Source of the DNA: Protoeuglena noctilucae
Lineage: Eukaryota
NCBI GenBank assembly: GCA_958009085.1
Contig: OY253676.1
Span: 248,001 to 312,000, forward strand
Direction: 5' to 3'
Length of the DNA stretch: 64,000 nucleotides
Positions 22,989-27,301 of this stretch are shown one piece after another. Positions within the stretch are counted from its first letter, which is position 1, and each line of letters opens with the position of its first letter. The notes below the pieces were generated by a model. It saw nothing but the letters and a program-made list of their open reading frames with translations, searched no databases and had not been told where the DNA came from. A program made the translations under genes and the position numbers.

Positions 22989-23989
22989 ATGTCGCGCCTC
23001 GAGTACCATCCGCCGGGCTTCGTGGTACCCGCGACACCAGAACGCGGGGATCCATCGCAAAAGGTCATCCTTTTTGGGTGAGGAAGTCGAATAGACGCCA
23101 TGCTCAGCAGTGCGCGCTTGGACGCCTTGCCGGGGGAAATTGCGGGCCTGCAACGACCTCTCGCAGGCGCCAGAGGGGCGAATCTCAAGCGTCCAACTTC
23201 TCGCACTTCGTCACCAAGACCGAGGCGTTCCTGCGCCTCGCCGGCATCCCCTTCGAGGCGCGGGCGACGGGGCCCAGCCCCGCAGGCCCAAAACAGAAGC
23301 TCCCCTGGATCCAGCATGGGCCCCAAGAGGTGGCAGAGACCGAGCTGATCCTCGACTTCCTCGAGCGCACGTACCCGGACAAGGCAGAGCCGCTGCGGCC
23401 ATCGCCTGACCGCCGGGCGCGTGCCATCGCCGCGCGCATTGTGAGCGAGGACGAGGTATACTTGCACAGCGTGCACTTTCGGTTCTGCACCGAGGAGGGG
23501 TGGGCAGTGACGCGGTGCCTGTTCCAGGGGCTCCCCGAGAAGGAGAGGGATGCGCTCGCTGAGGAGTCGCAGAAGAAGCGGGCACAATCGCTGTGGCAGA
23601 TGGGCATCTCGCGGCACGCGCCCCAGGACAGGGACGCGGTAAGAGGCGTAGAGGGTGGGGGCCGGGCCATGGATCATAGATGGCCCATACGCATCGGGGG
23701 CATCTCTGTCTGCCCGCAGCTGTTGCGACGGGCGCTGGACGCTCTGTCTGGACTCCTCGGCGACGACGACTTCTTTGGTGGTGCCAGCCCCTGTCGCGAG
23801 GACTGTGGCGTGTTTGGGATGCTGGACTGTATCCTGTACTCGCCGGCGCCGGAGGCGGTGGCAGGGCTCATCCGCCGGGACTACCCAAGCCTCGTTTCCT
23901 ACACAGAGCGTTTCCGCGCCAGGGTCTTCCCCCACATCGCATCGCGCCAGGAGCTGACTGACGGGTCGGTCTTCCCGCTCCTGCCCTGA
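22989..23989 (+). CDS. FAX/metaxin-type glutathione S-transferase-fold protein
   Basis: SNFSHFVTKTEAFLRLAGIPF...GPKQKLPWI...AETELILDFL and ALDALSGLLGDDDFFGGASPCREDCGVFGML. Introns 23078-23166 and about 23639-23719. Confidence 0.8.
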
Positions 23990-24100
23990 GACAGAGTATT
24001 CTGTTTTTTGTGGACCTCGCAGCATGCTTGCGAGCACCATGGCGCATGGATGTGCGGCCATGGAGAGCACTCAAACTCTAGCGCGCCCCGCTGCGAGGCT

Positions 24101-25606
24101 ATGTTGGAAAGAGAACCCGGCAAGCGTCAGGATGGCGCCATCTCAAGCGCAAACGGCCCTCAGTCGTTGTGGAACCACAGCGCCAATCCGGGTGCGTCAC
24201 TGGGAGGTGCAACCCGATCGCTCGATGCACGAGCCGGGTCGTGGATCGGTGACGTTTCCGCTCGTGCAGGATGGAGCGCCGAGGAAGCACAGGTATTCAA
24301 GCTTTTGCTGAAGAAGTTTGGGGTGGGGAAGTTTGCGCAGATCCAATCGTGCGGCCTGCTCCAGGGAAAGACGGCCAGTCAGCTATGCAAGTTAGCCCAG
24401 GTGATCGCCTGCTGCGTTCGTGGGACGGACCGGGCCACGGAGCCTGCGGCCTCGCGTGATGAAACACAAGGCCCTTGTGCCCCCCCTTCCAGCGTCTCCT
24501 GGGACAGCAGTCGCTCGACAGCTTCCGCGGATTACGAGTGGACGTGGATAGAGTGCGCGCGGACAATGACGCCAGGGAAGGAGTGCAGGTGACGCCACGG
24601 CAGGCCGTGCGGTGCAGGCAGGAATGCCGCGAACAAGCACCGCGCACGGGCGCGTCTGAGACGCATGAGTTCACTCGCAGCGTAAACGACTGTTGATATA
24701 CAACTCGGGGCCGCCGCCTGGCAAGGCGGAGACGGAGGCTGCACGAGCTGCGAACCAAAAACGGTACGGCCTGACGAGCGAGCAGGTCGCCGAGGTCGAG
24801 CGGGCCTTCGAAGCGCTTTGCCAGAGCAAAGACCAGCCGAGTGCATTTGACTGGGCATTTTAGTGCGCCAGTTAATGCTACAGCAGCCCAATTGAAGTTT
24901 GCTTTGCCTTCGCGTTCACGCAGGGCAGTGTTGCATCCATCGATGCAGAGACCGCGCAGCTCCTTGAGGCGGACCCGGAGGTCGGTGGCTCGCGGACGGT
25001 CGCTGCGCACTTGCTGCTTTCTGGATGGCTGCGCATGCGATGCAGACCTGTGTGATGTCCCACAGGGCCTCGACCGTGCCGGGAAGCTCACCCTGGTGCA
25101 GCGCCTCCTGTCAGCCATTCACGAGCGAAGGAGAAACAGAGTTGCCGAGGACCTCGCGGGCCAAGGTCCCGGTGAAGGTGCTGCAGCGCCAGGGACCAGC
25201 CGCATGCAGCGACAGTTGTGACAGTGGGGCTTGTCAAGCGTTCCGGCAGGCAACGCCCATGTTCGCGTTCCCGGCGCCGCCGCAGGAGTTCCAGCGGAAG
25301 ACAAGGTCGAGCGTCGCCGTGTTGGGAAGAAGCCCGGGCGCAAGCGTAGGCCTCGGTGAGTGGCAGTTGCTGCGGCGCCCGTCTCATTGCCCCTTGCTGT
25401 TGCCCTAGCTCCCTCACCGTCCGCGGCGACGTCGGGTGCGCCTCAGGGACGCGTGCGAGGAAATGGATGGGGAGCTCATCAGCGCCGACATCGAGGACCT
25501 TCTTGCCATGGGCTTCACGCGTGCCGATGCCGCTGACGCCGTCCTGCTGGCCGGCCCGGGCAACGTCGACGGCGCGCTCGAGTGGCTGTTGAACAGGCGA
25601 AGCTGA
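24101..25606 (+). CDS. Probable MTA1c (DNA N6-adenine methyltransferase complex) p1 subunit homologue with C-terminal UBA domain
   Basis: Spliced product SLWNHSANP|GWSAEEAQVFKLLLKKFGVGKFAQIQSCGLLQGKTASQLCKLAQ|RLLGQQSLDSFRGLRVDVDRVRADNDAREGVQ|RKRLLIYNSG...NQKRYGLTSEQV resembles ciliate/fungal p1 as recalled. Last exon LLAMGFTRADAADAVLLAGPGNVDGALEWLL is UBA-like. Start may be 24050. Confidence 0.72.
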
Positions 25607-25825
25607 TCAGAGCGACACCGATGGTCCGTGTGTCGATCTACGGCAACACATGCGCCCCTCCGCCCCTGGCATGGCAATGTGGACAGAGACGGCACCGGTG
25701 ATTCAACACCACGACGAGACTGGTACATGGCGAGCCTTGCAGGCCTAAGGCGCCCGCCTAGCATAGGTGCATCACCAAGCAGGCGCGAGCCACGTGGGGG
25801 TCTGTCCCGGCGAGCCCTAGCGCCC

Positions 25826-27301
25826 TCATGCCTTGACGACCGCCTTCTTCGCGTTCTTGATGCCCTCGATCGCATCCTTGTACGACTTGGCGCCGAAAAC
25901 GGCCGAACCCGCCACGATGGCGTTGGCCCCCGCCTCAATCACCTTGTGCGCGTTGGCCGGGCCCACGCCGCCGTCCACCTCAATCCACGGGTTCACCCCC
26001 TGCGAGGAACGCCCAGTGCGCCGTCGTGTAAGTCATCGAGTCAAGTCAAGGCAGGCCACAAGGAAGCCTCCAACATCCCGCCGCTTATCCCATCCTGTGG
26101 TGCGGCACTGCGGCCCGCCCTATCCCCCACCCCTCCATTCGCTGCACCCTTGCCTTGGCCTGGCACATGGCCTTGAGCTTGCGGATCTTCTCGACCTGCG
26201 ACTCGATGAACTTCTGCCCGCCGAAGCCGGGGTTGACCGACATGATGAGGACGAGGTCCACGTCCGTGATGACCTCCTCGATCGCAGACAGGGGCGTCGC
26301 GGGGTTGAGCACGACCCCGGCGAGGCACCCGAGGTCCTTGATCTGGTAGACCACGCGGTGCAGGTGGATGGTCGAGGTCTGCTCGGCGTGCACCGAGATG
26401 ATGTCCGCGCCGGCCTGCGGGTGAACGGGCGGGGAACGGGCCGAATGGAGCGATGTTGTTCCGGTGTGCAACCACGCGACTAAGCGCCTGGCGCGCGGTG
26501 CGGAGGGGGCCCTGGAAGGGATGCGCACCTTGGCGAAGTCCGCCACGCGCTGCTCGGGCTCGACAATCATGAGGTGGCAGTCGAGGACCTTGTCCGTGAT
26601 GGGACGGAGGGCGTCGACGACGAGCGGGCCGATCGTGATGTTGGGGACGAAGCGGCCGTCCATCACGTCGATGTGAACCCAGTCGCAGCCGGCCTCATCG
26701 ATCGCCTTGACCTCCTCGCCGAGCTGCGCGGGCCGGGCGCGCGTCAGAAGTTACAAGTCCGACACAACAGTCGCTCGCTGGCCCGGCGCGGGCTAGGGCG
26801 GGGTTCCCCGCGCGCCAGCCTGCCGGGAGCTGATCCGAGCAGGGCTTGGGCGCCGCTGGCGCGCCATGCGCGGACGGACCTTCGAGAAGTTCGCGGAGAG
26901 GATAGAGGGCGACACCACGACGGAGTCCTTGCTCTGCGTCACCCGCTTGGACCGCGCCACCACCGACCGGCGAGCCGGCGCAGCGGCAACCTGCTGGCAG
27001 GGCAAGCGAGGCGGTCCGGGACTGCTTGGACATCGCGCTGACGTATTCGAGCACAAACGGGCGCAAGCTATGCCCGCATAGGGGCCGTCGGGGCCATCGA
27101 CCCGTCCGGACGCGCGGAAGCGCGGGTGACCCCGGACCGCAAGCAAGGAATCGCCCCGGCGTCGTCTCCGGGCCCGGCACGCCCGCAGTGAATGGGCGCG
27201 AAAGAAACAAATGCAATAACTGAGACGGCTGGGGCGCGCGCGTCACACGGCGAGCCCCACACCTTCCCCGCGAGGGCGACCCCGGCCATCGACAGCGCCA
27301 T
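25826..27301 (-). CDS. RPE: Plastid ribulose-phosphate 3-epimerase
   Basis: [66 protein letters not shown]; transit-like N-terminus. Confidence 0.95.

What the first reader, a model, noticed from the sequence alone, without database searches (positions are those of the whole stretch)
24101..24840. Likely p1 subunit of the MTA1c DNA 6mA methyltransferase complex
Seen: four small exons (to 24191, 24270-24400, 24493-24588, 24681-24840) splice into SLWNHSANPGWSAEEAQVFKLLLKKFGVGKF...GLLQGKT..QL...QRLLGQQSLDSFRGLRVD...RKRLLIYNSG...NQKRYGL, which is not visible as one ORF in the track. Established: MTA1c (MTA1, MTA9, p1, p2) writes ApT 6mA in ciliates, with homologues in early-diverging fungi, and Chlamydomonas has ApT 6mA. 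As I recall it, p1 has a Myb/homeodomain-like WN....PGW..EE...L...L..FG.G.W, GK, QRLLGQQS pattern. Inference: this alga encodes an ApT 6mA system.
Basis: partly seen in the sequence, partly recalled or inferred. Interest (0 to 1): 0.75.

Follow-up and report, generated by a model that had tools for sequence, protein, structure and literature searches.

The report
Algal DNA-methylase helper with ubiquitin-binding tail
This gene encodes the DNA-gripping helper subunit of a known enzyme complex that marks adenines in active genes; the green-algal version carries an extra ubiquitin-binding-type tail, and in this alga the transcripts seen are spliced so that none yields the whole protein.

Summary
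Spliced exons 1-3 match ciliate p1 at E 7e-19, gapless over 86 aa; the next hit is at E 0.5. RNA contigs confirm the three junctions. The genome also has AMT1 with DPPW. p1 in green algae is already known.

(1) The gene runs on to 25606 through four more exons: the likely MTA1-docking helix-turn-helix (HTH), a basic patch and a C-terminal UBA domain. UBA is on 16 of 17 named chlorophyte p1s, including Chlamydomonas. It is absent from red-algal, chytrid and ciliate-code p1s. I found no paper noting it. The contigs show intron retention (stop at 24861), a frameshifting donor at 24763 and exon-4 skipping. None joins the whole DNA-binding region to the HTH. Either an in-frame form was missed or the donor is damaged.

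6mA was not measured; p2 and AMT6/7 were not properly testable. The system is known; the UBA variant is new and testable.

The parts
24004..24191 (+). Exon 1 (leader and N-tail). In-frame ATGs at 24050 and 24101; 24101 fits the family N-terminus best. SLWN motif near the end.
   Evidence: RNA contigs reach 24004; alignment A1; ATG list
24192..24269 (+). Intron 1, 78 nt, GT..AG
   Evidence: joint in 3 of 4 runs, loose ends in the fourth
24270..24400 (+). Exon 2: homeobox-like/Myb-like DNA-binding helices
   Evidence: Pfam Myb_DNA-binding E 1e-4, below the curated cut-off; ciliate p1 20-63
24401..24492 (+). Intron 2, 92 nt, GT..AG
   Evidence: joint in 4 of 4 runs
24493..24588 (+). Exon 3: QRLLGQQS p1 signature
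24589..24680 (+). Intron 3, 92 nt, GT..AG (retained in the transcript contig behind P0001)
   Evidence: joint in 4 of 4 runs; P0001
24681..24863 (+). Exon 4 reading frame: last loop and helices of the DNA-binding region. 3' end unresolved: donor after 24763 (frameshift), or read-on to TAG 24861-24863 when the intron is retained.
24764..24923 (+). Variable intron 4 region: retained, spliced from 24763, or removed together with exon 4. The GT at 24841 would give a typical 83-nt intron but is one base out of phase, has A at -1 and is not used in any listed joint.
24924..24980 (+). Exon 5: start of the helix-turn-helix (about 24942 on), phase 0 with the downstream frame
   Evidence: acceptor used in two joint types
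25066..25177 (+). Exon 6: long helix of the helix-turn-helix (to about 25107), likely MTA1-docking element
   Evidence: 16.2 bits to the family HTH profile for exons 5+6, 0 of 500 shuffles as high
25286..25355 (+). Exon 7: Lys/Arg-rich patch, possible nuclear localisation signal (inferred)
25447..25606 (+). Exon 8: C-terminal UBA domain (about 25484-25597, MGF loop at 25508); stop TGA 25604-25606
   Evidence: Pfam UBA_7 E 6e-8 and UBA E 9e-7, both above cut-off; PDB UBA hits; RNA to 25606

Best explanation
This is the single p1 (AMTP1) gene of a green alga, of the chlorophyte type: DNA-binding N-terminal region, helix-turn-helix, basic patch, C-terminal UBA. The identification as p1 is about 0.98 on its own. 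Mechanism, inferred from Tetrahymena: the HTH (exons 5-6) docks on the N-terminal helix of AMT1. The N-terminal region (exons 1-4) clamps double-stranded DNA, so that AMT1 can flip and methylate the adenine of ApT, mostly in linkers just downstream of transcription starts. The UBA is inferred to bind ubiquitin, either to recruit the complex or to control its turnover. In this reading the full-length protein comes from a low-abundance in-frame splice of intron 4 that the assembled contigs lost, while most RNA in these samples is spliced unproductively. Shown here: homology, exon structure, AMT1 presence, UBA distribution. Inferred: complex assembly, 6mA, ubiquitin binding, the in-frame isoform.
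For: p1 homology E 7e-19, family profile E 7e-58, fold match. 9 of the 19 ciliate p1 contact residues named in PMC12485025 section 9 are identical by my hand mapping. One p1 locus found in the genome. AMT1 can be spliced to a complete frame with all four motifs tested. Exons 5-8 are open to the stop, keep HTH and UBA, and are spliced in RNA, which suggests they are still used. 89 enumerated GT/GC-AG models give an in-frame product, including GT donors at 24785 and 24794 with the acceptor that RNA uses. This alga uses a GC-AG intron in the neighbouring gene. AMT1-encoding species, chlorophytes included, have TSS-proximal ApT 6mA (PMC12695648).
Against: No in-frame exon 4/exon 5 joint in 4 of 4 runs. 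Contig depths of the retained and frameshifted forms add up to about the exon 3-4 joint in two runs (12.5 against 12.8; 7.0 against 6.7), leaving little room for a fourth form, though contig depth is a poor measure. The in-frame GT donors at 24785 and 24794 would cut a conserved helix. The window's p1 has the longest branch of 60 rows (1.72 against a median of 0.13), and the nearly invariant Trp is Phe. Four out-of-frame ATGs lie in the leader. AMT6/7 was not found and p2 was not searched.
Confidence: 0.6

Rival explanations
1. It is p1, but the intron 4 donor is damaged and the gene is hypomorphic or decaying, so ApT 6mA is reduced or being lost although AMT1 is intact.
For: Retention, an upstream cryptic donor and exon skipping together are the usual outcome of a weak 5' splice site (own knowledge). 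The natural-looking GT at 24841 gives an 83-nt intron, inside the gene's 78-108 range, but is one base out of phase and has A at -1, whereas 7 of 7 RNA-used donors in this gene have G. Ciliate p1 lacking the HTH (1-145) loses MTA1 binding (PMC9174199 passage), so the retained and frameshifted products should not dock. The skipped form lacks DNA-contacting residues. The branch is very long.
Against: Exons 5-8 have no stop and keep HTH and UBA. An unnamed relative, P0003, shares the divergent recognition-helix sequence, so part of the divergence is old. The RNA comes from one study, and contigs drop rare forms. p1 loss abolishes symmetric 6mA and slows growth in Mucor (PMC11258239 passage), so a fixed lesion would carry a cost.
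Confidence: 0.27
2. Function is split between two partial isoforms: the retained form supplies the whole DNA-binding region (166 or 183 aa), and the exon-skipped form supplies HTH and UBA (238 or 255 aa).
For: Both forms are seen in RNA, and the skipped form is in frame to the natural stop. The ciliate N-terminal region binds DNA alone and also touches MTA1, p2 and MTA9.
Against: No precedent found. The skipped form is seen in only 2 of 4 runs. The retained form has a stop upstream of three introns, which suggests a decay target (inference).
Confidence: 0.08
3. The UBA exons belong to a separate small gene, and p1 ends at 24863.
For: The retained form stops at 24861-24863.
Against: RNA joins exon 3 and exon 4 to 24924 and on to the UBA exon. 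98 of 116 full-length homologues carry the UBA on the same chain.
Confidence: 0.03
4. It is a generic Myb/SANT or telomere-repeat-binding protein unrelated to 6mA.
For: Weak Pfam Myb hit, below cut-off; Atlas clusters labelled Myb-like.
Against: E 7e-19 to p1 against 0.6 to TRF Myb. Homology extends well beyond the Myb helices.
Confidence: 0.01

Closest known systems
Tetrahymena p1/AMTP1 of MTA1c (PDB 7F4L, 7YI8, 8XYL, 9O6K, 9U9E)
   Same: Gapless match over the N-tail, homeobox-like helices and QRLLGQQS; same order of DNA-binding region then HTH; partner AMT1 with DPPW is in the genome.
   Different: The ciliate C-terminal region is described as unstructured and acidic, with no UBA; here there is a basic patch and a UBA. 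10 of 19 named contact residues differ. Intron 4 splicing is unresolved.
Chlorophyte p1 homologues, e.g. Chlamydomonas CHLRE_11g467637v5 (P0045) and Micromonas MICPUCDRAFT_38841 (P0091), named in databases as UBA domain-containing or hypothetical proteins
   Same: Same architecture, core-HTH-basic-UBA, ending at the C-terminus. P0045 hits ciliate p1 at E 2e-30 and UBA structures.
   Different: The window's copy is far more diverged (branch 1.72), and no in-frame full-length transcript was seen.
Mucorales Mta1c P1
   Same: Same complex; P1 deletion removes symmetric 6mA (PMC11258239 passage).
   Different: The one named fungal p1 in my hits (a chytrid, P0137) has no UBA; Mucor P1 itself was not examined.
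DNMT1 recruitment through ubiquitin-binding RFTS (recalled, no call)
   Same: An analogy only: a maintenance DNA methylase machine with a ubiquitin-binding module.
   Different: Different mark, fold and subunit; nothing tested here.

Membership tests
p1/AMTP1 (MTA1c subunit) | Best sequence match is p1, extending beyond the Myb-like helices | tested here: met
   E 7e-19, 86 aa gapless; next hit E 0.5; family core 154.7 bits over 126 of 126 positions
p1/AMTP1 (MTA1c subunit) | Homeobox-like helical N-terminal fold | tested here: met
   Model of P0001 (mean pLDDT 64.6, about 92 over residues 51-90); top two Foldseek hits are chain C of MTA1c structures, E 1e-4 and 2e-3. The last 35 residues of P0001 are intron.
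p1/AMTP1 (MTA1c subunit) | DNA- and partner-contacting residues conserved | tested here: inconclusive
   9 of 19 residues named in PMC12485025 section 9 are identical (S15, K44, Q61, R68, Q73, S74, K101, N107, K114); W45, K46, Y63, M64 and six others differ; hand mapping
p1/AMTP1 (MTA1c subunit) | MTA1-docking helix-turn-helix after the DNA-binding region | tested here: met
   Exons 5-6 score 16.2 bits on the algal profile, 0 of 500 shuffles as high. The algal profile against the ciliate-code HTH gives hhalign score 15.4, E 0.004, probability only 8.6%, 0 of 100 shuffles. The algal HMM alone did not detect the ciliate HTH, so the link is modest.
p1/AMTP1 (MTA1c subunit) | One transcript encodes DNA-binding region and HTH in frame | tested here: inconclusive
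   0 of 3 assembled forms do; contigs only, 1 study
MTA1c/AMT1 system | Catalytic AMT1/MTA1 with DPPW | tested here: met
   L001 = G000:C7:233293; E 1e-35 to MTA1 against 2e-11 to METTL3; complete splice model possible, not RNA-checked
MTA1c/AMT1 system | AMT6/7 (MTA9) partner | tested here: inconclusive
   Not found with Pfam MT-A70 (3 candidates scored) or two AMT1 pieces; these searches are insensitive. Ostreococcus and Micromonas are also listed with none.
MTA1c/AMT1 system | p2 partner | not testable with these tools
   No stored p2 sequence or family model was available as a query
MTA1c/AMT1 system | Symmetric ApT 6mA downstream of TSSs | not testable with these tools
   No raw-signal data
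UBA domain | Profile match above cut-off with MGF loop | tested here: met
   Pfam PF22562 32.8 bits (cut-off 27) and PF00627 29 bits (cut-off 22.4); MG[FY] in 100 of 102 family UBA hits
UBA domain | Binds ubiquitin | not tested
   No binding data; no complex was folded

The most novel reading that the evidence does not exclude
Chlorophyte algae have grafted a ubiquitin reader onto the 6mA writer. The conserved C-terminal UBA of p1 would couple ApT methylation to a ubiquitin signal, such as ubiquitylated histones at transcribed 5' ends or the replication clamp. That would offer a route for targeting 6mA to the first linkers of active genes, possibly standing in for AMT6/7 where that subunit seems missing. 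In this alga, unproductive splicing of intron 4 would additionally throttle the docking-plus-UBA half of p1.
Probability: 0.3. Interest if true: 0.7.

Novelty: new variant of a known kind. Interest (0 to 1): 0.4.

Why it matters
That a green alga has p1 and AMT1 is expected. The useful part is how the AMT1 complex finds the 5' ends of active genes, which remains open. A UBA kept at the very end of nearly all chlorophyte p1s, with its MGF loop intact, gives a one-mutation test in Chlamydomonas (CHLRE_11g467637). It also re-labels a family now filed as 'UBA domain-containing protein'. If the intron 4 donor is truly damaged, this alga would be a rare snapshot of the AMT1 pathway being lost, a loss that PMC12695648 reports happened repeatedly.

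Tried and rejected
- A search for longer proteins containing exon 4, to see what follows it in transcript-derived proteins, scored 0 of 127 candidates (weak).
- A metagenome scan with P0001 confirmed 0 of 241 pattern matches, so no close relative's locus was available to show the ancestral intron 4 donor.
- My first trial donors (24786, 24795) were off by one; the correct 24785 and 24794 are.
- Ranking 89 in-frame splice models by profile score mostly rewards keeping the exon 4 helix and cannot pick the true junction.
- One run's contig break near 24757-24782 looked like a branch for donor 24785 but is better read as a coverage gap; not used.
- AMT6/7 searches were negative but insensitive.
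- The upstream GST-like gene had no RNA cover in the four runs; no conclusion drawn.
- ApT observed/expected of 1.07 in the window says nothing about 6mA.
- The tree's placing of the window row beside two Chlamydomonas species is not trusted (long branch). That tree left out loci with in-frame TAA/TAG, short or low-scoring cores, and duplicates.
- Atlas hits (0.81-0.93) are leads only.
- No complex was folded: the HTH is split by an intron, and UBA-ubiquitin is a textbook pair.

Full report
OBSERVATION. The window is G000:C9:248001-312000 of a 26.3 Mb, 27-contig genome. Of 24 listed runs, 4 RNA runs hold the stretch; I laid those four, which are at most 3 samples from 1 study and are contigs only. 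They join introns 24192-24269, 24401-24492 and 24589-24680 with no base or indel differences from the genome. They also join 24981-25065, 25178-25285 and 25356-25446, and RNA runs from 24004 to 25606. So the gene has eight exons, not four.

IDENTITY. The unspliced reference 24101-24400 already ranks ciliate p1 first (E 2.5e-4; telomere Myb 0.2). P0001, from a JGI contig spliced at introns 1 and 2, matches p1 at E 7e-19 without gaps over 86 residues; the next of 10 hits is at E 0.5. A 27-sequence family profile hits p1 at E 7e-58. The predicted model's best two fold matches are chain C of 9O6K and 9U9E. One p1 locus was found in the genome. By hand mapping, 9 of 19 contact residues named for Tetrahymena p1 are identical. 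The row is strongly diverged: end branch 1.72 against a median of 0.13 among 60 rows. An unnamed relative, P0003, shares part of that divergence. Green-algal origin is inferred from the UBA architecture and from the neighbouring ribulose-phosphate epimerase, whose best hits are 7B1W and 1RPX (that these are Chlamydomonas and potato plastid enzymes is recalled).

PARTNERS. Pfam MT-A70 finds two loci. L001 is AMT1/MTA1 with DPPW, E 1e-35 to ciliate MTA1 against 2e-11 to METTL3; GT..AG models give a complete frame of about 300-335 aa with the four motifs tested, not checked by RNA. L002 looks METTL4-like by my reading of its frames (not tested). AMT6/7 was not found, but the searches are insensitive, and Supplementary Table 1 of PMC12695648 lists Ostreococcus and Micromonas with AMT1 and no AMT6/7. 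p2 could not be searched. 6mA was not measured.

THE 3' HALF AND THE UBA. Read in phase from 24924, exons 5-8 give a short helical motif, a Lys/Arg patch and a UBA above Pfam's cut-offs. The helical motif scores 16.2 bits on the family profile, with 0 of 500 shuffles as high. It aligns without gaps to the motif at the end of ciliate-code p1s (hhalign E 0.004, probability 8.6%, 0 of 100 shuffles). I take it as the MTA1-docking HTH (Tetrahymena 152-183) with moderate confidence.

The UBA is a family trait.
- Among 173 stored proteins, 98 of the 116 with a strong core and at least 280 aa carry it. Of 102 UBA hits, 100 have MG[FY] and 100 end within 2 residues of the C-terminus. The profile was built from 20 of these sequences, but the precomputed Pfam columns agree.
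- Of 24 named rows that I picked by hand, 16 of 17 chlorophytes have it (Prototheca does not). 0 of 4 red algae, 0 of 1 chytrid and 0 of 1 Prasinococcus have it, and one row labelled Pavlova does. I left out two short second models of Volvox africanus and Apatococcus that lack it (P0039, P0037); four unnamed transcriptome proteins also lack it.
- Of 80 metagenome loci, 47 have UBA and 10 are too short to judge. 18 of 18 judgeable loci with in-frame TAA/TAG (ciliate code, inferred; many near-identical) lack it, as do 5 other AT-rich loci.
So the UBA looks like a chlorophyte addition, on thin outgroup sampling.

THE SPLICING PUZZLE. No joint uses 24840. Three forms are seen:
- (A) Retention of 24764-24923, with retained sequence in 4 of 4 runs; stop at 24861, 166 or 183 aa.
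- (B) Donor after 24763 to 24924, in 3 of 4 runs; frameshifted, no HTH or UBA.
- (C) Exon 4 skipped, in 2 of 4 runs; in frame to HTH and UBA but missing the last DNA-contacting loop and helices.
Contig depths of A plus B roughly equal the exon 3-4 joint in two runs (12.5 against 12.8; 7.0 against 6.7), fall short in a third (36.1 against 42.8), and the fourth shows only A. The tool warns that such depths are poor measures, that contigs drop rare forms, and that 31 rows of its piece table were not shown. In Tetrahymena, p1 1-145 without the HTH loses MTA1 binding, so A and B should not dock. The GT at 24841 would make a normal-sized intron but is one base out of phase and lacks the -1 G that 7 of 7 used donors have. 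In-frame options exist but are unseen. I cannot separate a missed minor isoform from a damaged donor.

MECHANISM. Shown: orthology, exon structure, AMT1 in the genome, UBA distribution. Inferred from Tetrahymena structures: the HTH docks on AMT1's N-terminal helix, the N-terminal region clamps DNA, and AMT1 methylates ApT. Inferred from comparative data: the mark sits just downstream of active TSSs. Conjecture: the UBA reads ubiquitin on chromatin or the replication clamp, or governs p1 turnover.

LITERATURE SEEN.
- PMC12695648: abstract, outline, Results part 1 of 3, one Methods section, and searches of its 12 supplementary files.
- PMC12485025: passages and section 9.
- PMC9852454, PMC9174199, PMC11258239 and bioRxiv 10.1101/2025.02.07.637104: passages.
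- Others: search listings only. Beh et al. 2019: not seen (recalled).
p1 in green algae is stated in print. No listed paper had UBA or ubiquitin-associated with 6mA terms. The Chlamydomonas gene id returned 0 papers. One search gave 2 papers; the one I opened mentions only a ubiquitin-like protease. The library lacks most subscription papers and all figures, and bioRxiv supplements were closed, so earlier notice of the UBA is not excluded.

VERDICT. Real, and correctly identified. The system and its presence in green algae are known. The chlorophyte UBA tail is an apparently undescribed variant with a simple test, and the unresolved intron 4 is a genuine oddity on thin RNA evidence. Novelty: new variant of a known kind. 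Interest 0.4.

Noticed in passing
window 26000-26153 (minus strand): RNA-supported GC-AG intron (154 nt) in the ribulose-phosphate 3-epimerase gene, joined in 4 of 4 runs.
   Followed up: yes
window 24024-24060: Four out-of-frame ATGs lie in the RNA-covered leader. Three share a frame that overlaps the p1 start and stops at 24309; two have strong-looking contexts. They could damp translation if the start site is at or before 24004.
   Followed up: partly
window about 23190-23989 (+): GST-like gene (Pfam GST_N_4 and GST_C_6) ends 111 nt before the p1 ATG at 24101; the spacing is very tight.
   Followed up: partly
window 25606-25690: p1 and the epimerase are convergent, and their RNA contigs end about 80 nt apart.
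   Followed up: no
L002 (G000:C1:732282): Second MT-A70 gene with DPPW, METTL4-like by eye. No METTL3 or METTL14 was found among 3 candidates; several chlorophytes are listed without them.
   Followed up: partly
L057-L086 (20 loci with in-frame TAA/TAG): Read with table 6, all 20 frames end 167-174 residues after the SLWN motif, right after the HTH: possibly minimal ciliate p1s, or introns follow.
   Followed up: partly
P0033: A p1 with UBA labelled Pavlova lutheri falls among green-algal rows (open fork); it may be contamination or a mislabel.
   Followed up: no
L021 1514-1642: The UBA lies in a different frame from the core, unlike its near-identical neighbours; frameshift or assembly error.
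   Followed up: no
whole window: TpA is depleted (observed/expected 0.45), while CpG (0.98) and ApT (1.07) are not.
   Followed up: no
P0065: A Coccomyxa model fuses p1-UBA with ARM repeats; probably a merged gene model.
   Followed up: no
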